Shown in pieces: positions 1 through 12,360 of a stretch of 12,360 nucleotides of DNA. Origin of the DNA: a virus. Lineage: Duplodnaviria > Heunggongvirae > Uroviricota > Caudoviricetes. Location: positions 1-12,360 of IMG/VR virus record IMGVR_UViG_2802429245_000001. One strand, 5' to 3'. Within the stretch, counting starts at the first letter, position 1, and each line of letters opens with the position of its first letter. The translations under genes were made by a program, and so were the position numbers. The notes beneath the pieces are model-generated. The model ran no database searches, was not told the origin of the DNA, and saw only the letters and a list, made by a program, of their open reading frames with translations.

Positions 1-115
1 TACCCAACTCCAATCAATCAATGCGTTTTAATCGACAATACAAATAATATAAGACGCGTGAGATGTCGCCCGGTGATTCGCTTTCTGGTGTTTTTTCGAT
101 CTTTCCGGGTTTTAA

Positions 116-433
116 ATTCCTATCGATGAACGCCTGGAAAAACTGGAAGAAAACGTCGCGCAGTTCAGCGCGAAGAATGCCCCGAAAGATACCGGTGATA
201 ACAAGCCGGAAGGCAGCACCGGCGATCAGGGACAGGACAACGCAGAACAGAACAACAAGGACGACAAAACCTTCACGCTGACCACCGGGCAGGGCGAAAA
301 GCTGTTCTCCACAGTGAACGCCATCGCGGAGAAGGTTACCAGTATGGAAACCGCATTTGCTGAACTCAGCAAGGACGCCACGAAGCTGCCGGGCAACAAT
401 CCGGCCGGTGGCGAAACTTTTAACCTGGTGTAA
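116..433 (+). pseudogene. Capsid scaffolding protein (P2 gpO-like), C-terminal ~105 codons only; 5'-truncated with no canonical in-frame start
   Basis: The frame ending at TAA 431-433 translates to ...ERLEKLEENVAQFSAK...VTSMETAFAELSKDATKLPGNNPAGGETFNLV*, which resembles the C-terminal scaffolding region of gpO-type proteins as I recall them. In-frame stops lie at 74-76 and 113-115, and the first in-frame GTG/ATG are at 314/344. It sits immediately upstream of the capsid gene, as in P2 (O then N). Confidence 0.5.
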
Positions 434-2791: not shown

Positions 2792-3265
2792 ATGACGCAA
2801 CTCGCCAGCCTGACGGCATTCATTGAAAACAATCTGCCGGCACGCGCACGCATTCCGTTCACCAGTGACATGGATGACATCACGCTCGTTCCGTTTACGA
2901 AGTCGCTGGGGCACGGGCAGTTATGTACGCAGGTTCGAAAATATACGGCTTTTCTGCGATGGGACGCATGGCCCTACCGCAAACTGAATCCGGATTTGGT
3001 GTTTTCTCTGGTTGAAGCCTGGCTGGCAGACAACGGCGGCGACCTGCGCCAGCGCCTGGCACCGGATGCGCCAGCCGTTGACGTCGAAGTGGATGATGAA
3101 AATGAAGTGGCATGGCTGGAAATCAGTCTGCCGCTGGTTGATCCCATCACCCTGGTTGAGGACGAAAACGGCCCCATCCCCAGAGGCGGGAAACGTTACC
3201 AGCTGGAAAAGCCTGAAATCTGGGTGGCTCAGGCGCATCAGCTTCACTGTCAGGTGATGCCATGA
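2792..3265 (+). CDS. Putative tail completion protein (P2 gpR-like)
   Basis: 157-aa ORF with SD AAGGA upstream of ATG 2792. Size and position (after gpL, immediately before the S-like gene, stop overlapping the next start as ATGA) fit a gpR-type tail completion protein. The assignment rests mostly on synteny. Confidence 0.45.
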   Translation: MTQLASLTAFIENNLPARARIPFTSDMDDITLVPFTKSLGHGQLCTQVRKYTAFLRWDAWPYRKLNPDLVFSLVEAWLADNGGDLRQRLAPDAPAVDVEVDDENEVAWLEISLPLVDPITLVEDENGPIPRGGKRYQLEKPEIWVAQAHQLHCQVMP

Positions 3266-3975
3266 CGCGCCCCGTGATTAACGAGTCACAACTCCGGCAG
3301 GTTCGTCGCGCCATCAGAGAGGCAGAACTTCCGCCGGCAAAGGCCAGAAAGCTGTTGGTTCGCATTGCGAAATACGGCCTGATACCGGCTGCACGACGCA
3401 ATGTGAAAGCACAGCGAACACCGGAGGGGGCAGCCTGGGCACCACGAAAAAGACCGGATAAAGCCAGCGGCAGGTATAAAAACAAAATGCTGCTGGGACT
3501 GCCGAAACTGCTGGCCATCAGGGTTGATGGCAGCGGGAAAAGTGTCCGCCTTTTCTTCAAAAAAGGGGATTACAACACCGGCTCTCATGGTGGGGCGGTT
3601 GCGTGGGTGCAACAGCACGGCGCAACCATCAAAGGCCGCGCCACAAAACGCCGGGACAGCGAAGCCATGCGCACCCGTCCCGCCACACGACGGCAGGCAG
3701 AACGCCTTCTTTCTCTGGGCTTTCGCGCCCCCGTCGGCGCGGTCAGCAAAAAAACCGGACGCAGGGGATACAGAAAACCTTCCCTGAAATGGATTATGGA
3801 AAACATGAGTATGGCGCAGGCCGGGCTGGTGATCAGCATTCTGAAAGGCGAGCAGAAAAAACGTGTATGGGAAATCAAAATTCCCTCCCGCGCATTTCTG
3901 GGAGCCAGTAACGCTGAATTTGCCCGCATTCTGGAGGCGCAATTGCGCAGCCTGCATTACGGCGGCACGAGATAA
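3262..3975 (+). CDS. Phage virion morphogenesis / tail completion protein (gpS-like), extended basic form
   Basis: 237-aa ORF whose start overlaps the upstream stop (ATGA at 3262-3265). Central VAWVQQHGATIKG and C-terminal IPSRAFLG resemble conserved motifs of the virion morphogenesis family from recall. The protein is very Arg/Lys-rich. Confidence 0.55.
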   Translation: MTRPVINESQLRQVRRAIREAELPPAKARKLLVRIAKYGLIPAARRNVKAQRTPEGAAWAPRKRPDKASGRYKNKMLLGLPKLLAIRVDGSGKSVRLFFKKGDYNTGSHGGAVAWVQQHGATIKGRATKRRDSEAMRTRPATRRQAERLLSLGFRAPVGAVSKKTGRRGYRKPSLKWIMENMSMAQAGLVISILKGEQKKRVWEIKIPSRAFLGASNAEFARILEAQLRSLHYGGTR

Positions 3976-3994: not shown

Positions 3995-5143
3995 ATGACC
4001 TGGCCATCTGTCACGATCGAACAGTACAACACATTCAGCAGTTCACCGGACGGCGTGGAAAATACACTGCTGTTTGTGGGCAATGCACAAAACAACAAAG
4101 GTAAGGTTCTGCCGGTTAACGCTAACAGCGATCTGGATGAACTGCTGGGAACGAACGCCAGCCCGCTGAAGAATTTCCTTCAGTCCGCACTGACCAATGC
4201 CGGGCAGAACGCCTTTTTCTATGTTGCCGTTCTGCCGGAAGCAGGCAGGGGCAAAGAAGCGACGCCAGCCTGCCAGGCATGGCAGAACGCCATACTGGCG
4301 GCTCAGGAAACTGTTTCAGTTGAAGGCGTGGTGATCACCGAACCGGTCAGCACGAAGGATGACATCAACGCCATACAGGCGTTACGTCAGACCATCATCA
4401 ATAAATATCAGCGCCGCATCTGGTTCATTCTGACCATTGCCGCCAATAACTGCAGCAAAACCTGGGCAGATTACGTTGCTGAACTGACCACGCTACAGGA
4501 AGGCATCGCCGCCCCGCAAATCATGCTGGTTCCGGAAATTTTTGGCTTTGAACCGGGCGTTCTTGCCGGCCGTCTGTGTAACAGCGCCGTCACCATTGCT
4601 GACAGTCCGGCGCGTGTGGCAACCGGGGGCCTGTCCGCACTGAAAACCACTGAACGCCCGAAGGACAGCGCAGGGCAGGCAATTGATCTCGCCACCCTGC
4701 AGGCACTGGCAACCGCCCGCTACAGCGTGCCCATGTGGTATGCCGACTATGACGGCCTTTACTGGGCTGACGGTGTAACACTTGAAGTGGAAGGTGGGGA
4801 CTACAACGTCATTGAGCATGTCCGCATTGCTGATAAGGTGGCGCGCCGCGTGCGGCTGATAGCCATCCCCAAGATTGCAGATCGCTCGCTGAACAGCACG
4901 CCGGGTAGCATTGCCGCACATGAAACGCTGTTTGCCCGCCCACTGCGTGCCATGGCGAAATCCACGCAAATTAACGGCATCACATTTCCGGGAGAAGTGA
5001 AATCGCCCCGGAAAGGCGACGTGGTTATCACCTGGCAGGACGAAAAGACGGTCAGCATCAGCATTGTCGTCCGCCCTTACGCCTGCCCTAAAACCATCAA
5101 AGTGGGCATTCAGCTGGATAAATCTCTGGAGGAAAACGCATGA
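3995..5143 (+). CDS. Putative contractile tail sheath protein (DUF2586-like family, non-P2 type)
   Basis: 382-aa product with SD AGGAG 7 nt upstream of ATG 3995. It sits in the canonical myovirus order sheath - tube - chaperone - tape measure. The track ORF start at 3863 overlaps the previous gene and is rejected. No clear similarity to P2 FI from recall. Confidence 0.55.
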   Translation: MTWPSVTIEQYNTFSSSPDGVENTLLFVGNAQNNKGKVLPVNANSDLDELLGTNASPLKNFLQSALTNAGQNAFFYVAVLPEAGRGKEATPACQAWQNAILAAQETVSVEGVVITEPVSTKDDINAIQALRQTIINKYQRRIWFILTIAANNCSKTWADYVAELTTLQEGIAAPQIMLVPEIFGFEPGVLAGRLCNSAVTIADSPARVATGGLSALKTTERPKDSAGQAIDLATLQALATARYSVPMWYADYDGLYWADGVTLEVEGGDYNVIEHVRIADKVARRVRLIAIPKIADRSLNSTPGSIAAHETLFARPLRAMAKSTQINGITFPGEVKSPRKGDVVITWQDEKTVSISIVVRPYACPKTIKVGIQLDKSLEENA

Positions 5144-5595
5144 CGACCCGCATTAACGGCATGGCGTTTGACACTTTTATCGGTGGAACGGATATCCATG
5201 TGAAAAGCATCTCACTGGACATCAGCGATGAAAGCGCCGTTGCCAAAACCCGTGGCATCCCTGACGGCAAACTGCGCGGCCCTGTCAGTGCCGAAGGTGA
5301 AATCGAAATGAGTACCCGCAGCTTTAACCAGCTCGGGGAAGTGGCTGCTCAGGCGGGATCGTGGCGTGACCTGCCGCCAATGGATTTTGTGTTTTACGCC
5401 AATACGGGAACCGAAGAAATCCGCGTTGAAGCCTTCGGTTGTGAGCTGATGCTTTCCGGCCTGTTAAGCATTGACACCGAGAGCGCAGATCTGACCACGC
5501 ACAAAATCAAGTACGTGGTGGCAAGCCCTGACTTTGTGCGTATCAACGGCGTGCCCGTTCTCTCAGAGAACGACGTGCGCGGACTGATGGGGTGA
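5140..5595 (+). CDS. Putative tail tube protein (DUF2597-like)
   Basis: 151-aa ORF whose start overlaps the sheath stop (ATGA at 5140-5143), with GGAGGA upstream. Size and position between sheath and the chaperone/tape measure genes fit a tube protein. Confidence 0.5.
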   Translation: MTTRINGMAFDTFIGGTDIHVKSISLDISDESAVAKTRGIPDGKLRGPVSAEGEIEMSTRSFNQLGEVAAQAGSWRDLPPMDFVFYANTGTEEIRVEAFGCELMLSGLLSIDTESADLTTHKIKYVVASPDFVRINGVPVLSENDVRGLMG

Positions 5596-5598
5596 ACC

Positions 5599-5895
5599 AT
5601 GCAGGAGCATGAGCGCACCATTATCACTCTGGGCATTCTGGGCGGAATCGCTGCCGCAAGTCGGGTGCTGGCTGGCGCAGAGCCGATTACGTTGCGGTTG
5701 TTTGTGGGCCGAACCCTGCTGGGGAGCGCGCTGGGTGTTTCTGCCGCTGCCCTGCTGGTTCGCTACCCGAATCTTGACCCACTGGCCATTGCCGGCGCAG
5801 GCACCGCAATGGGCGTTGCCGGTTACCAGATTGTTGAAATCTTCCTGCGTCATATGCGCCGGAAGCTGGACGAGAAAGAGAACAAAGAGGAGTAA
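5599..5895 (+). CDS. Holin (3 predicted transmembrane segments, charged C-terminus)
   Basis: 98 aa with three hydrophobic stretches (TIITLGILGGIAAASRVLAG, LRLFVGRTLLGSALGVSAAALLV, LAIAGAGTAMGVAGYQIVEIFL) and a highly charged tail (RHMRRKLDEKENKEE). SD GGGGTGA is upstream of ATG 5599 and the gene lies just upstream of the endolysin. Confidence 0.65.
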   Translation: MQEHERTIITLGILGGIAAASRVLAGAEPITLRLFVGRTLLGSALGVSAAALLVRYPNLDPLAIAGAGTAMGVAGYQIVEIFLRHMRRKLDEKENKEE

Positions 5896-5900
5896 CCGCA

Positions 5901-6008
5901 ATGTTGTCCCGCAGGGAACAAAAAGCCGCTGCCATTGCCTGGAAAATTATCCGGGCACTGTGGTACTGGCTGCGCAAACCTCAGCAACCTCATAAGGAGC
6001 AAAAATGA
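5901..6008 (+). CDS. Small basic amphipathic peptide (35 aa), hypothetical; between holin and endolysin
   Basis: ATG 5901 is preceded by a strong SD, AGAGGAG, with an 8-nt spacer. Translation is MLSRREQKAAAIAWKIIRALWYWLRKPQQPHKEQK. The stop TGA 6006-6008 overlaps the endolysin start ATG 6005-6007. It is below the size cutoff of the ORF track. Confidence 0.35.
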   Translation: MLSRREQKAAAIAWKIIRALWYWLRKPQQPHKEQK

Positions 6009-6346
6009 AACTCTCCGATAAGCAACAACAATTTACCGTCATGATCGGAAAACTCATCCAGTTTGCCCATCAGCGCGGTTATGGCCTGACGTTCGGTGAG
6101 GCGTACCGCACGCCAGAACAGGCAAAACTCAACGCACAAAAGGGATCCGGCATTGCCAACAGCCTGCACTGCCAGCGGCTGGCCGTGGATTTTAATCTGT
6201 TTATTAACGGTGAATATCAGACCCGCACAGAGGCCTACCGCGAGCTGGGCGAGTACTGGGAATCCCTTGGTGGCGCATGGGGCGGTCGTTTTAAAAACCG
6301 CCCGGATGGCAATCATTTCAGCCTTGAGCACGACGGCGTGCGCTGA
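6005..6346 (+). CDS. Endolysin, peptidase M15 (LAS-type zinc metallopeptidase, probable L-alanyl-D-glutamate endopeptidase)
   Basis: 113 aa with a perfect SD AAGGAG 4 nt upstream of ATG 6005. Metal-binding motifs SLHCQRLAVDF (H-x6-D) and DGNHFSLEHDG resemble T5-type M15 endolysins from recall. No signal peptide or SAR segment. Confidence 0.82.
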   Translation: MKLSDKQQQFTVMIGKLIQFAHQRGYGLTFGEAYRTPEQAKLNAQKGSGIANSLHCQRLAVDFNLFINGEYQTRTEAYRELGEYWESLGGAWGGRFKNRPDGNHFSLEHDGVR

Positions 6347-6353
6347 TTTTACG

Positions 6354-6383
6354 CTTAATAAGCCTTCCTGCAGGCTTATTAAG
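6354..6383 (+). terminator. Stem-loop (11-12 bp stem) immediately after the endolysin stop; possible attenuator or terminator without a strong U-tract
   Basis: CTTAATAAGCC (6354-6364) pairs with GGCTTATTAAG (6373-6383), and the loop region contains the palindrome CCTGCAGG. It is followed by CCCTCTTATTCTTGAC rather than a clean T-run. Confidence 0.3.
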
Positions 6384-6410
6384 CCCTCTTATTCTTGACT
6401 TTAAAAGGAA

Positions 6411-6704
6411 ATGATGATGAACGATAAAAACACCCAGACTACCGCAGAGAACACCATCACTTTACAGGTCGGCGAGCATGAACTGACGTTTATCCCGACC
6501 GTAAAAGCCTACAACGACCTGCAGAACGACTTCATGCCGGATAACAAAATCGCGCCGCTGAAAAACTACCTGCGCCGTATCGTGATTAAAGAGCACCGCG
6601 ATCTGCTGAACCAGCTGCTGGAAAAACCAGGAATGCCGGCCAGCCTGGCAACAGCCGTGAATAACGAGTTTGTGCCGGAAGTGGAAATCACCGTAAAAAA
6701 ATAA
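6411..6704 (+). CDS. Tail assembly chaperone (P2 gpE-like / lambda gpG analogue)
   Basis: 97-aa ORF directly upstream of the tape measure gene, ending ...EITVKK* at a run of A residues. Three tandem ATGs lie at 6411/6414/6417 and the AAAGGA SD favours the second or third. Confidence 0.7.
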   Translation: MMMNDKNTQTTAENTITLQVGEHELTFIPTVKAYNDLQNDFMPDNKIAPLKNYLRRIVIKEHRDLLNQLLEKPGMPASLATAVNNEFVPEVEITVKK

Positions 6705-6892
6705 AAAGCCATCTGGGAGCCATTGATCGCAATGACCTTACCCGGATGCTGATTCTGCGCCGCCACTGGCTGCCCGGCGAGGATGACTCGCCGCAGTCAC
6801 TGGCTGCCGCCGTCTGGCTGGATAACCACTACTGGGAAAATATGAGCATCGCCGTCAATAACGGCATTATCCGTGCTTTTAAGGGATCGTAA
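6411..6892 (+). CDS. Tail assembly chaperone, -1 frameshift-extended isoform (gpE+E' / G-T analogue), predicted ~160 aa
   Basis: The -1 frame is open from the slippery site to TAA 6890-6892, which overlaps the tape measure ATG (TAATG). The extension reads IKSHLGAIDRNDLTRMLILRRHWLPGEDDSPQSLAAAVWLDNHYWENMSIAVNNGIIRAFKGS. Recoding at this position is conserved in the chaperones of long-tailed phages. Confidence 0.55.
6695..6701 (+). other. Candidate -1 programmed ribosomal frameshift slippery heptamer A_AAA_AAA, followed immediately by the zero-frame stop TAA
   Basis: Zero-frame codons are GTA AAA AAA TAA. The heptamer AAAAAAA at 6695-6701 allows both lysyl-tRNAs to re-pair in the -1 frame, after which the reading frame continues ATA AAA AGC and onward. 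Confidence 0.5.
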
Positions 6893-9066
6893 TGTCACAA
6901 CAGCGCCTTGAATTACTTCTTGAACTGACAGACCGCCTGACAAGGCCGTTGCGTGCAGCCGGGCGACAGGTTCAGGGATTTGCTGCAACAAGTCGGGGAG
7001 CCTTTCGGGACATTGCTACCGGAGGCGCTGCGCTCTGGGGAGTGGGTGCAGCCATTCAGGGGGCACTGATGCCAGCCATTGAAATGGACAGGGCGCTCGG
7101 TGAGGTGAAATCACTGGGCGTCGCAGAGTCCGGATTGCGTAAACTCAGCCGCGCCGCCGTTGATTTCACTATGGAATACGGCGGGGCTGCGCAGGATTTT
7201 GTGCGTGCGTCATACGACATCCAGTCAGCCATTGCCGGGTTAACTGACGATGAGCTGTCCCGCTTCACCACCGCATCAGCAACGGTGGCAGCAGCAACCA
7301 AATCCAGCAGCCAGACCATTACCGCCTACATGGGCACCATGTACGGCATCTTTAAAGACCAGGCTGATGCCATGGGAAAAAGCAAATGGGTGGAGCAGGT
7401 CGCCGGGCAAACCGCCACCGCCGTGCAAATGTTTAAAACAACCGGCGATAACATGTCAGCGGCGTTCACCACGCTGGGTGCCAGTGCAAAAGCGGCCGGT
7501 ATTGATGCGGCTGAACAGTTCGCCGTGCTGGGACAACTACAGGCCACCATGAGTGGCAGCGAGGCAGGGACGAAATACAAAGCATTTCTTGCCGCAGTAG
7601 GCAGCGCCCAGAAAAAGCTGGGGCTTAATTTCGTGAATAAAGACGGCACGATGAAAAGTGTTGTCGAGATCATGAAACTTATCAGGGGCAAATTTGGTGA
7701 TCTGTCAAAAGTGGCTGATTCCGATTTGCTGAAAAGCGCCTTTGGCTCCGATGAAGCTGTGGCCATGATTAAATTACTCAATGCGGACATTGGCGGACTT
7801 GAAAAGAATATCGCCACGCTGGGCAATATCAAAGGTATGGATAAGGCTGTCGAAATGGCACAAGCCATGGCCGATCCATGGGAACAGGCCGCTGCAATTA
7901 TTAACGGCATTCGCATCGAAATTGGCACGCAGTTGTTGCCTGTTCTGTACCCGTTTATCCAGAAAAGCAACGAAGGCGGCAAATCCTTTGTTGCCTGGTT
8001 ACGTCTGTATCCAAACATCACGCGCGCAATTGGTTTACTGGCGGGGACTTTTCTTAGCCTCGCAACCGTTGGCGCTCTCAGCAATATCATCATGGGACTG
8101 TTCAGCTTTGTAACAAAAGGGCTGATTGCCCCCGTAACAGGCTTAATAAAGCTTCTCAGGTTAAGCGCATTGCGAAATACACTGGCCGCTGCTGCAACAG
8201 GGGCTTATGCCGCTGCACAACAATATCTGAACAGGGTCATGCTGGTTTCAATGCTGACAGGACGCGGCTTTCTTACCACCATGCTGATGATGAGCGGGCC
8301 CATTCTGCTTATTGGTGCAGCCATTGCAGCAGTTGTTGCTCTTGTCTGGAAATTCTGGGAACCCATCAAAGCGTTTTTCAGCGGATTCATTCAGGGGTTC
8401 AGCGATGCATGGAAGACTATTTCACTTGGCTCTCCCATTCTGGCCGATATCGGCGCTGTTTTTGGTTTTGTATGGGATGCCATCAAAACAGCATTTAACT
8501 GGCTGATGAATTTACTCACACCGGTAGAACTGACGGGCGAAGCGTTCGGACGCGCCAGCGATGCCGGTGCGTCTTTTGGCCGTATCGTTGCCACAGCAAT
8601 CAACTGGATCCTGACGCCCACTGAAATCATGCTCGGACTGTTATCAAAAGTGTGGCAGGCCCTGCTCATTATTCTGCAGGGGTATAAGGATATCTGGAAC
8701 AGCCTGGATATTACTCACCCCCTAGATTCACTGAAAAATCTGGCTTCCGGGATCCTGGCTATTTTCAGCAACCTCTGGGAACTGGTGAAACAGTCCTTCA
8801 GTGATTCATGGGGCTGGATTGTGGACAAACTCAACATGATCCCCGGCGTTAACATCGGCACATCAGAAAGCACAGGAAGTGGCGAAGGCTCCGTATTAAC
8901 CGGCGGTAAAGCCATCAGCGCGGGGCCGGGTGGCATTGCGGCAGAAATGCAGAACAACAGCGAAAACCAGACCACCATCGACAACTCCCGTCGTGTGGTC
9001 AACGTCAATGTGCAGGATCCATCCCCTGCCCGTCTTAACGAGTGGATGGAGCTGCATGCATACTGA
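6892..9066 (+). CDS. Tail tape measure protein
   Basis: 724 aa with an Ala-rich, helical N-terminal half, central hydrophobic segments and C-terminal aromatic periodicity typical of tape measure proteins. It lies immediately downstream of the frameshifting chaperone. By the roughly 0.15 nm per residue rule this predicts a tail on the order of 100 nm (inference). Confidence 0.88.
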   Translation: MSQQRLELLLELTDRLTRPLRAAGRQVQGFAATSRGAFRDIATGGAALWGVGAAIQGALMPAIEMDRALGEVKSLGVAESGLRKLSRAAVDFTMEYGGAAQDFVRASYDIQSAIAGLTDDELSRFTTASATVAAATKSSSQTITAYMGTMYGIFKDQADAMGKSKWVEQVAGQTATAVQMFKTTGDNMSAAFTTLGASAKAAGIDAAEQFAVLGQLQATMSGSEAGTKYKAFLAAVGSAQKKLGLNFVNKDGTMKSVVEIMKLIRGKFGDLSKVADSDLLKSAFGSDEAVAMIKLLNADIGGLEKNIATLGNIKGMDKAVEMAQAMADPWEQAAAIINGIRIEIGTQLLPVLYPFIQKSNEGGKSFVAWLRLYPNITRAIGLLAGTFLSLATVGALSNIIMGLFSFVTKGLIAPVTGLIKLLRLSALRNTLAAAATGAYAAAQQYLNRVMLVSMLTGRGFLTTMLMMSGPILLIGAAIAAVVALVWKFWEPIKAFFSGFIQGFSDAWKTISLGSPILADIGAVFGFVWDAIKTAFNWLMNLLTPVELTGEAFGRASDAGASFGRIVATAINWILTPTEIMLGLLSKVWQALLIILQGYKDIWNSLDITHPLDSLKNLASGILAIFSNLWELVKQSFSDSWGWIVDKLNMIPGVNIGTSESTGSGEGSVLTGGKAISAGPGGIAAEMQNNSENQTTIDNSRRVVNVNVQDPSPARLNEWMELHAY

Positions 9067-9406
9067 TAAAACGCTTTACATTGATTTGCTCATCACCGGC
9101 CGCAATCTCACGCTGAACAGCGCCAGTGAGCCGGTGTTATGCAACAACAGGGAAAGTATTGCCCAGGACTGCCAGCACGCCATCATTGAGAGCGGACTGG
9201 CAACGCGCCTGCTGGCTGAAAAAAGCCCGACGCTTCGTGCCGACATCATGATGCAGATGACACTGCTGATTGAAGATGATGAGCGTATTACGCCTGGCAC
9301 GGTCAGTGTGACAGAAGAAACCCCGCTTTCTGGTCGCCTGCTGATTAGCGCCCACACCGAAGATTTTTTTGAACCCCTGACTTTTACGGTATCTCTTGAT
9401 GATTAA
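9056..9406 (+). CDS. Small baseplate-associated protein (DUF2590-like; possibly gpW/gp25-like wedge protein)
   Basis: 116 aa with ATG 9056 preceded by GGAG at 9048-9051. It overlaps the tape measure 3' end by 11 nt and precedes baseplate J. Size and position fit a gpW/gp25-like protein, but sequence similarity is weak from recall. Confidence 0.45.
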   Translation: MHTDKTLYIDLLITGRNLTLNSASEPVLCNNRESIAQDCQHAIIESGLATRLLAEKSPTLRADIMMQMTLLIEDDERITPGTVSVTEETPLSGRLLISAHTEDFFEPLTFTVSLDD

Positions 9407-10583
9407 CGGCAAACCTACTGCAGATTACGAGCGCATTCTGGCTGATAATGGCATGCCGGTAACCGAAGAACAGGCTCGCGCTGAATTTGAAGCCATTGTC
9501 AAAGACGAAGGGCTTATCACCAACACTTCCCGCATGTCGCCGTTCTGGCGACTGATTACAGCTATCACCACAAAACCCGTGATGTGGCTGAAAGATGCGC
9601 TGGTTAATGTGGTGATGAAAAACCTGTTTCTGGCTGATGCCAGCGGTGTATTCGTTGATGTTTTTGCCTGGGCGGTAAACCTGCAACGCAAGGCCGCCAC
9701 GCACGCAGCCGGCGAGATTCGTTTCACCAAAAACGACATTGATCGCGCAGTTACCGTGTCGGCCGGTACGCAGATTCAGACAGAACGCATTAACGGCGTG
9801 ATTTATACGCTGACCGTTGTCAGGGATACCGTTATTCCGGCAGGAACACTCAGCATGAACATCGATGTTTCTGCGGAACAGGCCGGAGCCGGCTTTAACC
9901 TTGCGCCGGGATATTACCGCATCCTTCCGGTGGCGATTGATGGTATTGCCGGCGTTGAGAACGATGAAAACTGGCTGACCACACCGGGTGCCAACGAAGA
10001 AAGCGATGACGAGTTGCGTGATCGTGTTCGCAATCAGTTTAATCTTGCCGGCGCTTATCACACCGATGCAGTTTACCGGGGATTAATTGCCGGCGTTGCC
10101 GGCATCAGTGCCGACCGCATCTATTTTCTGCATGACGCACCACGCGGCCCCGGCACAGCAAATGCTTACATTCTGCTGGATACCGGCATCGCATCCGAAC
10201 CGTTCGTTGATGCAGTAAACGCATTCATTAACGATGAAGGTCATCACGGACACGGTGATGATCTGCGCTGTTTTTCCATGCCTGAAACACGCCACACCCT
10301 GACCGTGACACTCTGGTTATATGCAACGCTGAACCTCAGCGATGAGGAAATTCAGACGTTATTGCGCAATGTGGAAAATCTGGTTCGCTGTGCATTTCGA
10401 GAAAACAGCGATTATGACGTTCAGAAAACATGGCCGTATAGCCGTTTCAGCATGTCCAGACTGGGCGAAGAGATCCACCAGGTATTTCCACAGGTGGAGT
10501 CGGTTACATTTTCTCTTCCGGATATTCTCAGTGATCTGGCTGTTCCTCGTCTGGAATCCCTTACTGTGGAGGTGAGCGCGTGA
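9399..10583 (+). CDS. Baseplate J / gp47 family protein
   Basis: About 394 aa. The start is either ATG 9399 or TTG 9396, overlapping the previous gene's stop at 9404-9406. Size and position are those of a baseplate J-like protein (P2 gpJ / Mu gp47), followed by an I-like gene and the tail fibre. Confidence 0.8.
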   Translation: MINGKPTADYERILADNGMPVTEEQARAEFEAIVKDEGLITNTSRMSPFWRLITAITTKPVMWLKDALVNVVMKNLFLADASGVFVDVFAWAVNLQRKAATHAAGEIRFTKNDIDRAVTVSAGTQIQTERINGVIYTLTVVRDTVIPAGTLSMNIDVSAEQAGAGFNLAPGYYRILPVAIDGIAGVENDENWLTTPGANEESDDELRDRVRNQFNLAGAYHTDAVYRGLIAGVAGISADRIYFLHDAPRGPGTANAYILLDTGIASEPFVDAVNAFINDEGHHGHGDDLRCFSMPETRHTLTVTLWLYATLNLSDEEIQTLLRNVENLVRCAFRENSDYDVQKTWPYSRFSMSRLGEEIHQVFPQVESVTFSLPDILSDLAVPRLESLTVEVSA

Positions 10584-11215
10584 AACTTCCGGAGATCCCT
10601 GAATTCCCGCTCCCCACCTGGATGAATAAAGGCGAGCCGTTAACGCTGGCACATTCATCGCATCGCTACTGGGAAAAGGTATACAGCTGGCTGACGTGGC
10701 CACTACAGCAGATTGATGTCGACACCTGCGCAGAACCTTTACTTAACCTGCTGGCTTATCAGCGCAATATCACCCGATTTAAAGGAGAGCCGGTTTCGTT
10801 ATTTCGCTTAAGGGTGAAACACGCGTTTATTAACGCTCAGGACTCTGGCGAACGCGCCGGCTTCGAACGCATCTTTAAGCGTCTTGGCGTGGGAGACGTT
10901 AAAACACTGGAACGGCAACTGCAGCATGACTGGGACGTTATTTTACTGCGCATTAATGACACCCAGTTAAGTGAAAACAACGCGCTGATGATGCAGCTCG
11001 TGCGCCAGTATGGTCGTACCTGCAGGCGCTATTTCTTTCAGGTAATCAATACAACCACTGCCCGGCTGACAGCCGGCACATTTGATGGCCATTACAGGTA
11101 TCACACAGCAGAAGCAACGGTGAGAAAGGACACCATCTGGTTAACCGCTTCGCTACAGGCAGGACATTACGGCCTGTCCGTGGAGCATTACACATTACAG
11201 GCAGACGAAGCATGA
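10580..11215 (+). CDS. Baseplate/tail protein (P2 gpI-like or Mu gp48/YmfQ-like)
   Basis: 211 aa with a GTG start at 10580 overlapping the baseplate J stop (GTGA), preceded by a strong SD GGAGGTGA. Position between baseplate J and the tail fibre fits this family. Confidence 0.55.
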   Translation: MKLPEIPEFPLPTWMNKGEPLTLAHSSHRYWEKVYSWLTWPLQQIDVDTCAEPLLNLLAYQRNITRFKGEPVSLFRLRVKHAFINAQDSGERAGFERIFKRLGVGDVKTLERQLQHDWDVILLRINDTQLSENNALMMQLVRQYGRTCRRYFFQVINTTTARLTAGTFDGHYRYHTAEATVRKDTIWLTASLQAGHYGLSVEHYTLQADEA

Positions 11216-12360
11216 GCACGATTATTACTGAACAGTACGAACACTGGTGTGCGAATCAGCTCATCAGTGGAAAACCTGCGCGCCCGGATACATTTGTTTT
11301 TGCATATATTCCGGGACAGGATGAATCCGCAGAGATCCCCCGCGATGAGATACTCCCTGATGAATCCATGATTCAGTATCGTGCGCCGGTCACCCAGTAC
11401 GGCCTCCTGTCGCCGAACGCGACCGCGTTTTCCATCATTCTGGACACGACAGTCGGCGACTTCGAATACAACTGGATCGGTCTGCTGAACGAAGAAAGCG
11501 GCGTGCTCTGCATGATTGCGCACACACCTCGTCAGCAAAAAATTAAAACAGCGAACGGCGTGCAGGGAAACAACCTGATCCGCACATTTTCCATGGAGTT
11601 TGACGGCGCAGCCGCAGCAATGCATATCGATGTCAGTGCTGATGTCTGGCAGATTGATTTCACTGCACGCCTTGCAGGAATGGATGAGGCCCGCCGGCTG
11701 CTGGCGTTTGATCACTACGGTGAAGCCGCTTTTCTGGGGGATGGTTTTCAGGTCAGCTATCAGGATGGTACCGCTACTGTTGCCGCCGGCGTGGGTTATG
11801 TGGGAGGTCTGCGCGTCAGTCTGCGCGAACCTTACAGCCTGCCGGCTGCGGTCGGGGATACCATTTGGATTGATGCAAGCTGGCAGGGATTTGTTACCGG
11901 CGAATGGAATACCGTTTTTACGTTCTGCGCCCGCCAGGAACATGCGTCCTATACAGACGGTAACGGCTTCCGACACTTTGTCGCGCCACTTGCGAAACTG
12001 ACATCAGAAGGCTTACAGGATTTACGTCCACAGACGCCCGATGAAGAACAAAGCAATGCACTGGCAGAGCACGAAAAATCCCGCCGTCATCCGGACGCAA
12101 CACTGAAGGAGAAAGGCTTTGCGCAGTACAGCAACTCCACCGACAGCGACGCAGAAGACCGCGCCGCCACATCAAAGGCAGTAAAAGCCGCAATGGATAA
12201 GGCAAAAGGCGCTGTTGAGCGTGGCGGCGACACCATGACCGGGGAACTGAAAATCCGTGGTGTTAATGCGCTGAGGATTTTCAACGAAGCCTTTGGTCTG
12301 ATTTTTCGTCGTTCGGAAGAGTGCCTGCACCTTATCCCTACCAGTGAAGGTCAGGGCGAG
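11212..12360 (+). CDS. Tail fibre protein, N-terminal part (3'-truncated by the window end)
   Basis: ATG 11212 overlaps the upstream stop (ATGA). My manual translation shows no stop through 12360 (383 codons). It contains the conserved tail-fibre motif AEHEKSRRHPDATLKEKGFAQYSNSTDSDAEDRAATSKAVKAAMD, similar to P2 gpH / lambdoid Stf, followed by GDTMTGEL. Confidence 0.82.
   Translation, partial: MSTIITEQYEHWCANQLISGKPARPDTFVFAYIPGQDESAEIPRDEILPDESMIQYRAPVTQYGLLSPNATAFSIILDTTVGDFEYNWIGLLNEESGVLCMIAHTPRQQKIKTANGVQGNNLIRTFSMEFDGAAAAMHIDVSADVWQIDFTARLAGMDEARRLLAFDHYGEAAFLGDGFQVSYQDGTATVAAGVGYVGGLRVSLREPYSLPAAVGDTIWIDASWQGFVTGEWNTVFTFCARQEHASYTDGNGFRHFVAPLAKLTSEGLQDLRPQTPDEEQSNALAEHEKSRRHPDATLKEKGFAQYSNSTDSDAEDRAATSKAVKAAMDKAKGAVERGGDTMTGELKIRGVNALRIFNEAFGLIFRRSEECLHLIPTSEGQGE

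What the first reader, a model, noticed from the sequence alone, without database searches (positions are those of the whole stretch)
9056..11215. Compact baseplate block lacks recognisable hub and spike genes between tape measure and baseplate J
Contractile tails of the P2 and Mu types encode a hub (gpD/gp27-like) and spike (gpV/gp5-like) near the tape measure and baseplate wedge genes. Here only a 116-aa ORF separates the tape measure from baseplate J. Either the hub and spike are encoded outside the window, downstream of the fibre genes, or this tail uses an unusual minimal baseplate.
Basis: inference. Interest (0 to 1): 0.35.

Follow-up and report, generated by a model that had tools for sequence, protein, structure and literature searches.

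The report
HP1-type phage tail, hub-spike encoded downstream
The tail genes belong to an ordinary HP1-like prophage of E. coli; its hub and spike are not missing but are fused into one VgrG-like protein encoded a few kilobases downstream, after the tail fibre genes and outside the window, an arrangement already described for this phage group.

Summary
Only one 116-aa ORF (9056-9406) lies between the tape measure gene (6892-9066) and baseplate J (9399-10583). Neither this ORF nor the tape measure C-terminus looks like a hub or spike.

The window is the late region of an HP1-subgroup Peduoviridae prophage. In this group, three conserved genes follow the fibre genes: homologues of HP1 orf33, orf34 and orf35.

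The orf35 homologue (565 aa) models as a gp27/gpD-like hub fused to a gp5/gpV-like spike. Its best Foldseek matches are full-length VgrG, Pvc8 and Afp8 (E 1e-17 to 1e-13), Mu gp44 (4e-10) and T4 gp27. The OB-domain family matches 23 of 24 family members. An HxH motif is invariant, as in the P2 gpV apex.

All 41 E. coli genomes with the full block also carry this gene, and 78 of 80 viral contigs keep the same gene order.

The 116-aa DUF2590 protein is most likely the gp25/gpW-type sheath initiator. The fold and profile evidence for that is weak but consistent.

A 2023 paper (PMC10612066) already reports the gpD-gpV fusion in HP1 and finds the homologues in virions. The baseplate is therefore not minimal. 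Verdict: already known, low interest.

The parts
6892..9066 (+). Tail tape measure protein (724 aa), homologue of HP1 orf27
   Evidence: Pfam PhageMin_Tail 8e-29. phrog_28 tape measure 1.1e-103. The C-terminal 224 aa have no Pfam or PDB match.
9056..9406 (+). 116-aa DUF2590 protein, homologue of HP1 orf28. Probable gp25/gpW-type sheath initiator (baseplate wedge).
   Evidence: Pfam DUF2590 4.7e-36. The AF2 model (pLDDT 76.8) has IraD and T4 gp25 as its top PDB fold matches at E about 0.1. BFVD matches are named baseplate wedge, gpW or IraD/Gp25-like. A 63-sequence profile hits only the E217 gp34 and Pa193 gp35 sheath initiators in the PDB, at E 0.12-0.14. PMC10612066 Table S1 assigns the HP1 orf28 family to gpW by HHpred.
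9399..10583 (+). Baseplate J / gp6-like wedge protein (394 aa from the ATG; a TTG lies at 9396), homologue of HP1 orf29
   Evidence: Pfam Baseplate_J 4.3e-31. phrog_6 baseplate wedge subunit 6.5e-62.
10580..11215 (+). gpI-like baseplate/tail protein (211 aa), homologue of HP1 orf30
   Evidence: Pfam Tail_P2_I 7.4e-5. phrog_1228 tail protein 9e-82.
11212..12360 (+). Tail fibre gene, cut off by the window end (first 383 aa)
   Evidence: Pfam Phage_tail_fib N-terminal domain 2.3e-29 and Phage_fiber_2 repeat 6.6e-14.
3995..5143 (+). Tail sheath (DUF2586, HP1 orf23 type)
   Evidence: Pfam DUF2586 1.2e-127. Annotated as tail sheath in HP1 and ESSI-2.
5140..5595 (+). Tail tube (HP1 orf24 type)
   Evidence: Pfam Phage_HP1_Orf24 1.1e-50.
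6411..6892 (+). Tail assembly chaperone (6411-6704) with a probable -1 frameshift extension (-1 frame open 6665-6892, DUF6890)
   Evidence: Pfam Phage_TAC_10 1.6e-26 and DUF6890 3.5e-24. An A_AAA_AAA slippery run lies at 6695-6701, just before the stop, and the -1 frame is open through to the tape measure start.
2792..3975 (+). Tail completion proteins: gpR-like (2792-3265) and gpS-like (3262-3975)
   Evidence: Pfam P2_Phage_GpR 4.6e-16 and Phage_tail_S 2e-8. PHROGs tail terminator and tail completion.

Best explanation
The window is the late (head and tail) operon of an HP1-subgroup Peduoviridae prophage of E. coli. Its contractile tail has a complete conventional baseplate, but the genes are ordered differently from P2 and Mu.

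The order here is: sheath, tube, lysis genes, chaperone, tape measure, gp25/gpW-like sheath initiator (the 116-aa DUF2590 protein), gpJ, gpI, fibres. Only after the fibres come a three-gene hub block: homologues of HP1 orf33, orf34 and orf35.

The orf35 homologue is a single 565-aa polypeptide built like VgrG. It has an N-terminal gp27/gpD-like hub, an OB-fold, a beta-helical spike and a C-terminal HxH (histidine-cage) apex. It therefore supplies both hub and spike.

The hub-spike gene lies about 5-8 kb downstream of the block, outside the window.

What is shown: the gene content, the gene order, the fold of the hub-spike protein, and co-occurrence of the block with the hub-spike gene.

What is inferred: that DUF2590 acts as the sheath initiator, and that the window's own genome carries the same downstream genes as its 97.9%-identical relatives.
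For: Family assignment:
- P2-family capsid, gpM, gpL, gpR and gpS.
- DUF2586 sheath, HP1_Orf24 tube, DUF2590, Baseplate_J and Tail_P2_I.
- DUF2590 homologues occur in HP1 orf28, HP2, F108, ESSI-2, phiO18P and Vibrio phages.

Gene order:
- The full prophage L001 (97.9% identical to the window) has 237-, 191- and 565-aa genes after the fibre genes.
- The same triad occurs in HP1 as orf33-35 and in ESSI-2.
- In 80 IMG/VR loci the order is always TMP, DUF2590, J, I, fibre ... orf33, orf34, orf35. 78 of 80 contain orf35, and the other two end at a contig edge.
- 41 of 41 E. coli genomes with the full-length block also have the full-length hub-spike gene. In the genomes with a single copy of each, it lies 5-8 kb downstream on the same strand.

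Hub-spike identity of the 565-aa protein:
- AF2 model, with the N-terminal 240 residues at pLDDT above 80.
- Foldseek against the PDB: AlgoCIS spike 4.6e-17, Pvc8 6e-16, T6SS VgrG 9e-16 to 3e-13, Afp8 4e-14, Mu gp44 hub 3.9e-10, T4 gp27 2.7e-5, Mu gp45 spike 1.5e-3.
- Pfam Phage_base_V OB domain hits 23 of 24 family members (best 5e-5); Gp5_trimer_C hits 7 and Gp5_C hits 3.
- NCBIfam VgrG models at 6e-4.
- A profile search against PDB sequences returns the T4 gp5 beta-helix and VgrG OB regions at E 0.03-0.08, in the same order along the protein.
- H532 and H534 (HTH) are invariant in 24 and 26 sequences. P2 gpV has HTH at 197-199, and the motif is described as diagnostic of spike apex domains.

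Literature: PMC10612066 Tables S1 and S2 state that in HP1 the gpD and gpV homologues are fused into one polypeptide. They assign orf28 to gpW. Mass spectrometry of virions of the HP1-subgroup phage ACA1 detected the gpW-, gpD- and gpV-like proteins and the orf33 homologue.
Against: - The window ends inside the fibre gene, so the hub-spike gene cannot be read in this very genome. Its presence is inferred from close relatives.
- The spike half of the AF2 monomer model is of low confidence (residues 353-453, pLDDT below 50).
- Pfam hits to the OB and beta-helix families are all below the curated gathering scores.
- The DUF2590 to gp25 link never reaches significance in any single test: Foldseek against the PDB gives E about 0.1, the PDB profile search gives E 0.12, Pfam GPW_gp25 hits 0 of 63 members, and hhalign against P2 gpW gives probability below 1%.
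- No tube-initiator (gpU) or LysM (gpX) homologue could be confirmed. orf33 and orf34 have no detectable relatives of known function.
Confidence: 0.9

Rival explanations
1. The tail uses an unusual minimal baseplate that lacks a gp27-like hub and a gp5-like spike.
For: No hub or spike family matches any protein in the window. The tape measure C-terminus has no recognisable domain.
Against: A VgrG-like hub-spike protein is encoded in every related complete element examined. It has strong fold matches to hubs and spikes. Its homologues were detected in virions of an HP1-subgroup phage.
Confidence: 0.02
2. This particular prophage copy is truncated or defective downstream of the fibre genes and has lost the hub-spike block, so this copy really cannot build a complete tail.
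For: The window stops at 12360 inside the fibre gene, so the downstream part is unseen. Fragmentary copies exist in E. coli: five records hold only 3-20% of the block.
Against: All 41 E. coli genomes that hold the whole block also hold a full-length hub-spike gene. Every gene in the window is intact, with overlapping start and stop codons typical of a functional operon.
Confidence: 0.05
3. The 116-aa DUF2590 protein is itself a small spike, spike-tip (PAAR-like) or hub component rather than a sheath initiator.
For: It directly follows the tape measure gene, where Mu and P2 place hub-associated genes. No test for gp25 membership reaches significance.
Against: The model is an alpha/beta fold with three helices and a small sheet. 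It is not an OB-fold, a beta-helix or a PAAR cone. Its best fold and profile matches are gp25-type sheath initiators. A separate protein already supplies spike and apex. In P2, Mu and T4 the gene immediately upstream of the J/gp6 homologue is the gp25 homologue; for P2 this is shown, and for Mu and T4 it rests on my own knowledge.
Confidence: 0.03

Closest known systems
Haemophilus phage HP1 tail module (orf23-orf35) and the HP1 subgroup of Peduoviridae (HP2, K139, F108, phiO18P, ESSI-2, phi3, ACA1)
   Same: Identical gene order from capsid to fibre, and the same families throughout: DUF2586 sheath, HP1_Orf24 tube, lysis genes between tube and chaperone, tape measure, DUF2590, J, I, fibre, then the orf33-34-35 block. 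The DUF2590 protein is 57% identical to HP1 orf28.
   Different: The host is E. coli. The endolysin is an M15 peptidase, whereas HP1's lys gene encodes a larger protein of about 186 aa that I did not compare. The closest E. coli relative carries a second fibre/DUF4376 gene pair before the hub block. The hub-spike protein is only about 39% identical to HP1 orf35.
Phage P2 tail genes (V-W-J-I-H-G and FI-FII-E-T-U-D operons)
   Same: The head genes are clearly homologous. R, S, J, I and the fibre N-terminus match the same families. The sequence W-like gene, then J, I and fibre is kept. The spike apex carries the same HTH histidine-cage motif.
   Different: P2 encodes the hub (gpD, after T and U) and the spike (gpV, before W) as separate proteins in two operons. 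Here they are one polypeptide placed after the fibre genes. Sheath, tube and the W-like protein are too diverged to hit the P2 Pfam families. No confirmed gpU or gpX counterpart was found.
VgrG (T6SS), Pvc8 and Afp8 (extracellular contractile injection systems)
   Same: One chain carries the gp27-like hub, the OB-fold and the beta-helical spike. These are the best full-length fold matches (E 1e-17 to 1e-13).
   Different: Sequence identity is only 10-15%. The protein here belongs to a phage virion. It ends in its own HxH apex, plus about 30 further residues, rather than a blunt beta-helix capped by a separate PAAR protein.
Phage Mu gp43-gp44-gp45 followed by gp46-gp47-gp48
   Same: A three-gene hub block (accessory protein, hub, spike) plus the W-like, J-like and I-like wedge genes. 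Mu gp44 and gp45 are fold matches.
   Different: In Mu the hub block lies between the tape measure and the wedge genes, and hub and spike are separate proteins. The Mu gene order rests on my own knowledge. Here the block is moved behind the fibre genes and hub and spike are fused.

Membership tests
HP1-subgroup Peduoviridae tail module | P2-family head genes (N, M, L) followed by gpR- and gpS-like tail completion genes | tested here: met
   Pfam Phage_cap_P2 3.8e-83, Phage_term_smal, Phage_GPL, P2_Phage_GpR and Phage_tail_S.
HP1-subgroup Peduoviridae tail module | HP1-type sheath (DUF2586) and tube (HP1_Orf24), with lysis genes between tube and chaperone | tested here: met
   Pfam 1.2e-127 and 1.1e-50. 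Holin at 5599-5895 and M15 peptidase at 6005-6346. HP1 has the same layout.
HP1-subgroup Peduoviridae tail module | Tape measure directly followed by DUF2590, J, I and fibre | tested here: met
   The order is the same in every one of the 80 IMG/VR loci whose range reaches these genes (DUF2590 seen in 54, J and I in 65, fibre N-terminus in 70).
HP1-subgroup Peduoviridae tail module | orf33-orf34-orf35 block downstream of the fibre genes | not testable with these tools
   The window ends in the fibre gene. The feature is met in all relatives: L001, 41 of 41 E. coli genomes and 78 of 80 viral loci.
VgrG-like hub-spike fusion (gp27 + gp5), for the 565-aa orf35 homologue | N-terminal gp27/gpD-type hub fold | tested here: met
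   Foldseek: Mu gp44 3.9e-10 (TM 0.53 on the target), E217 hub 5e-9, T4 gp27 2.7e-5, pyocin R2 hub 2.6e-5. The model region has pLDDT above 80.
VgrG-like hub-spike fusion (gp27 + gp5), for the 565-aa orf35 homologue | OB-fold (Pfam Phage_base_V) after the hub | tested here: inconclusive
   23 of 24 family members hit PF04717 at E<=0.1 (best 5e-5). The E. coli protein scores 15.7 bits against a cut-off of 23.8. NCBIfam VgrG models hit the same stretch at 6e-4.
VgrG-like hub-spike fusion (gp27 + gp5), for the 565-aa orf35 homologue | Trimeric beta-helical spike | tested here: inconclusive
   Gp5_trimer_C hits 7 of 24 members and Gp5_C hits 3 of 24. The T4 gp5 beta-helix matches at E 0.028 in the PDB profile search. 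The monomer AF2 model is unreliable in this region.
VgrG-like hub-spike fusion (gp27 + gp5), for the 565-aa orf35 homologue | Matches VgrG-type chains over their full length, in the same domain order | tested here: met
   The top 14 Foldseek matches are full-length VgrG, Pvc8, Afp8 or CIS spike chains, with 570-675 alignment columns.
P2 gpV-type spike apex | Conserved HxH histidine-cage motif near the C-terminus | tested here: met
   H532 and H534 are invariant in alignments A1 and A6. P2 gpV has HTH at 197-199. The motif is described as diagnostic in bioRxiv 10.1101/2023.02.25.529910. Metal binding itself was not tested.
gp25/gpW sheath initiator (Pfam GPW_gp25), for the 116-aa DUF2590 protein | Sequence match to the GPW_gp25 family | tested here: not met
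   0 of 63 diverse DUF2590 members hit GPW_gp25 at E<=1. hhalign against P2 gpW gives probability below 1%.
gp25/gpW sheath initiator (Pfam GPW_gp25), for the 116-aa DUF2590 protein | gp25-like fold | tested here: inconclusive
   Top PDB fold matches are IraD (TM 0.56) and T4 gp25, at E about 0.1. BFVD matches from 9e-4 include proteins named baseplate wedge, gpW and IraD/Gp25-like. The only PDB profile hits are the E217 and Pa193 sheath initiators at E 0.12-0.14.
gp25/gpW sheath initiator (Pfam GPW_gp25), for the 116-aa DUF2590 protein | About 110-130 aa and encoded immediately upstream of the J/gp6 homologue | tested here: met
   116 aa, at 9056-9406, overlapping the J start. P2 gpW is 115 aa and lies directly before J.
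P2 gpU tube initiator (Pfam PF06995), for the orf34 homologue | Sequence or profile match to gpU | tested here: not met
   The only significant Pfam hit is PF25759 HP1_ORF34; nothing matches PF06995 at E<=1. hhalign against P2 gpU gives probability 0.1%. There is no PDB hit. The literature calls the link uncertain.

The most novel reading that the evidence does not exclude
The hub-proximal part of HP1-type baseplates may be built differently from all solved contractile tails. Two observations leave this open.

First, orf33 and orf34 are conserved in every member of the group, and the orf33 homologue was detected in virions. Neither has a detectable relative among gpU/gp48/gp54 tube initiators or LysM/gp53 proteins.

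Second, the fused hub-spike ends in a predicted helix, then the HxH motif, then another helix. About 30 conserved residues follow the histidine cage, unlike the short beta-structured gpV apex.
Probability: 0.2. Interest if true: 0.35.

Novelty: already known. Interest (0 to 1): 0.1.

Why it matters
It matters little for biology. The finding is a correct reading of a gene order that is standard for HP1-like phages. The position and the fusion of hub and spike in this group are already published.

The practical value is for annotation. In RefSeq E. coli genomes this hub-spike gene is labelled 'hypothetical protein' in nearly all of the 48 full-length copies; one is labelled as a T6SS Vgr family protein. 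DUF2590 is still listed as a domain of unknown function. Genome scans that expect the P2 or Mu order will therefore repeatedly flag such prophages as lacking a hub and spike.

Tried and rejected
- hhalign of the family profiles against single P2 sequences (gpW, gpV, gpD, gpU) gave probabilities below 1% and is uninformative.
- I tried to build a diverse gpW profile with the search for related loci. It returned only copies 100% identical to P2 gpW.
- Searches against PDB sequences gave nothing for DUF2590 as a single sequence or as a shallow profile. They also gave nothing for orf34, orf33 or the tape measure C-terminus.
- Pfam scans of all 24 orf33 family members gave only scattered chance hits.
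- NCBIfam has no model for DUF2590, J, I, orf33 or orf34 at E<=0.01.
- Megablast of the window against the phage collection found no close sequenced phage, only fragments.
- I considered and rejected three ideas: a hub domain hidden in the tape measure C-terminus, DUF2590 as a spike or PAAR-like tip, and antisense ORFs inside 9056-9412 as genes (they lie within conserved coding sequence and match no family).

Full report
**Observation**

The + strand of the window carries one uninterrupted late operon.
- Head genes: P2-family major capsid (448-1461), small terminase (1479-2189) and the gpL head-completion protein (ending at 2782).
- Tail completion: gpR-like (2792-3265) and gpS-like (3262-3975).
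- Tail body: DUF2586 sheath (3995-5143) and HP1_Orf24 tube (5140-5595).
- Lysis: holin (5599-5895) and M15 peptidase (6005-6346).
- Tail assembly: chaperone (6411-6704) and tape measure (6892-9066).
- Baseplate block: a 116-aa DUF2590 protein (9056-9406), Baseplate_J (9399-10583), a gpI-like protein (10580-11215), and a tail-collar fibre gene from 11212 that runs off the window end.

The genes of the block overlap at their start and stop codons: ATG...TGA by 11 nt, then 8 nt, then GTGA, then ATGA. No hub or spike family matches any protein in the window. The last 224 residues of the tape measure match nothing in Pfam or in PDB sequences, even at E<=10.

**What the element is**

The tube, sheath and DUF2590 families point to the HP1 subgroup of Peduoviridae. 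By tblastn, the 116-aa protein finds HP1 orf28 (57% identity), HP2, Pasteurella F108, Cronobacter ESSI-2, Aeromonas phiO18P, Pseudomonas phi3 and many Vibrio phages. No sequenced phage is close at the DNA level. 41 complete E. coli genomes hold at least 80% of the window, the best at 97.9% identity.

The best of these (L001) shows a complete prophage, from the integrase to a tail operon that continues beyond the window. After the fibre genes come a fibre assembly protein, a second fibre/DUF4376 pair, and then three genes of 237, 191 and 565 aa at the end of the element. HP1 has the same three genes (orf33, orf34, orf35) after its fibre genes, at the right end of the genome. So does ESSI-2.

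**Where the hub and spike are**

The 565-aa protein is phrog_2258, 'baseplate protein'. It has weak Pfam hits to the Phage_base_V OB domain (residues 310-347) and to Gp5_trimer_C (393-442).

I built a 26-sequence alignment of its homologues and predicted the structure. Mean pLDDT was 68.8. The first 240 residues were above 80, and the spike part was poor, as expected for a monomer model of a trimeric beta-helix.

Foldseek against the PDB gave 46 matches at E<=1e-3.
- The top 14 are full-length hub-spike fusions. They include the Algoriphagus CIS (4.6e-17), the Anabaena CIS, Pvc8 (6e-16), T6SS VgrG proteins (9e-16 to 3e-13) and Afp8 (4e-14).
- Next come hub-only proteins: PhiTE, Mu gp44 (3.9e-10), MuSo2, E217, Pa193, the pyocin R2 hub and T4 gp27 (2.7e-5).
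- The Mu gp45 spike matches at 1.5e-3.

Support at the sequence level is individually weak but consistent.
- The family profile hits the T4 gp5 beta-helix (E 0.028) and the VgrG OB region (E 0.05-0.08), in the same order along the protein.
- NCBIfam VgrG models match at 6e-4.
- 23 of 24 diverse family members hit Phage_base_V (best 5e-5), 7 hit Gp5_trimer_C and 3 hit Gp5_C.
- Two histidines, H532 and H534 (sequence HTH or HSH), are invariant in both family alignments, including HP1. P2 gpV has HTH at 197-199. This HxH cage is described as the one universally conserved feature of spike apex domains and as a way to recognise them (bioRxiv 10.1101/2023.02.25.529910).

The protein is therefore a VgrG-like fusion of hub and spike that carries its own apex.

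**Conservation of the arrangement**

I fetched 80 IMG/VR loci through the orf33 family and mapped eight query proteins onto them by tblastn. The order was always tape measure, DUF2590, J, I, fibre ... orf33, orf34, orf35. orf35 was found in 78 loci, and the two exceptions stop at a contig end.

In E. coli, 41 records hold the full 9056-11215 block at 97% identity or more. All 41 also hold a full-length copy of the hub-spike gene. In those with single copies it lies 5-8 kb downstream on the same strand. The window's own downstream sequence cannot be read, so for this copy the conclusion is an inference from close relatives.

**The 116-aa protein**

Its AF2 model (pLDDT 76.8) is a small alpha/beta fold. 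No PDB fold match reaches E<=1e-3. The best matches are IraD (TM 0.56; I know it as a Gp25-like protein, and a BFVD entry name supports this) and T4 gp25, in the baseplate and as a crystal structure, at E about 0.1.

Against BFVD the best match is at 9e-4. Named matches include 'baseplate wedge protein', 'COG3628 phage baseplate assembly protein W' and 'IraD/Gp25-like domain'.

An exhaustive profile search found 193 clusters of DUF2590 relatives. A 63-sequence profile built from them hits only two PDB sequences. Both are deposited as sheath initiators: E217 gp34 and Pa193 gp35, at E 0.12-0.14, matching over the N-terminal 30 residues.

Pfam GPW_gp25 is not hit by any of the 63 members. Formal membership of that family is therefore not shown.

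Its size (116 aa, against 115 for P2 gpW) and its position directly upstream of J match gpW. I take it to be the gp25/gpW-type sheath initiator, with moderate confidence.

**Comparison with the literature**

A 2023 analysis of HP1-subgroup Pseudoalteromonas phages (PMC10612066) reached the same assignments by HHpred.
- The orf28 family corresponds to gpW (sheath initiator).
- orf34 may correspond to gpU, marked as uncertain.
- The orf35 N-terminal half corresponds to gpD and the C-terminal half to gpV. The paper notes that in HP1 the two are fused into a single polypeptide.

Mass spectrometry of ACA1 virions detected the gpW-like, gpJ-like, gpI-like, gpD-like and gpV-like proteins and the orf33 homologue.

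The explanation of the finding is therefore already in print, and my fold and synteny results confirm it independently.

**What remains open**

orf33 (237 aa) and orf34 (191 aa; Pfam PF25759, 'HP1 ORF34 baseplate complex protein') gave no link to any protein of known structure or function. As a result, the tube initiator and the LysM-type component expected in a contractile baseplate are not identified. The hub-spike protein also carries about 30 conserved residues after the HxH motif, and the motif is flanked by predicted helices. This differs from the short gpV apex.

**Verdict**

The 'encoded downstream of the fibre genes' alternative is right, and the 'minimal baseplate' alternative is wrong. 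The arrangement is the standard, published one for HP1-like phages: already known, low interest.

Noticed in passing
window 6665-6892 (slippery run at 6695-6701): The tail assembly chaperone gene ends ...GTA AAA AAA TAA. This gives an A_AAA_AAA heptamer directly before the stop. The -1 frame is open from 6665 to 6892, ends exactly at the tape measure start, and encodes the DUF6890 peptide that RefSeq annotates as a separate 48-aa gene. It looks like the usual programmed -1 frameshift of tail chaperones (P2 gpE/E').
   Followed up: partly
L001:31347-33044 (565-aa hub-spike protein, residues about 505-565): The invariant HxH motif (H532, H534) sits between two predicted helices. It is followed by about 30 conserved residues (...TGxPxNA...KYxPII). 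In P2 gpV only 12 residues follow the motif. The tip of this spike may be built differently from the gpV apex.
   Followed up: partly
L001:30090-30803 and L001:30775-31350 (homologues of HP1 orf33 and orf34): Two genes conserved in all 80 related loci, directly upstream of the hub-spike gene, have no detectable homology to any protein of known function or structure. The orf33 homologue was detected in ACA1 virions by mass spectrometry (PMC10612066 Table S2).
   Followed up: partly
E. coli RefSeq genomes listed: Nearly all of the 48 full-length copies of the hub-spike gene are annotated 'hypothetical protein'. One (NZ_OZ547217.1) is annotated 'type VI secretion system Vgr family protein'. This is an annotation gap that can mislead both phage and T6SS surveys.
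   Followed up: no
window 5599-6346: A holin and an M15-family peptidase (endolysin) are embedded in the tail operon, between the tube and chaperone genes, as in HP1. No spanin gene was evident in the 6346-6411 gap or among the listed ORFs.
   Followed up: no
L001:28307-30093: The closest complete prophage carries a second tail-collar fibre gene (404 aa) with a DUF4376 protein, after the first fibre and assembly pair. This suggests two alternative or additional receptor-binding proteins.
   Followed up: no
window 3262-3975: The gpS-like tail completion protein is 237 aa. The Pfam Phage_tail_S match covers only residues 11-123, whereas P2 gpS is about 150 aa. The basic C-terminal half has no assigned family.
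   Followed up: no
window 1-127: The first 127 bases, inside the scaffold gene, do not align with the otherwise 97.9%-identical E. coli prophages; all matches start at 127-128. This suggests a recombination junction in the scaffold gene.
   Followed up: no
L001:9064-10342 and 33873-34013: The related prophage carries ParM-like and partition-stability genes next to the replication endonuclease gene. A Hok/Gef toxin gene lies just beyond the tail operon.
   Followed up: no
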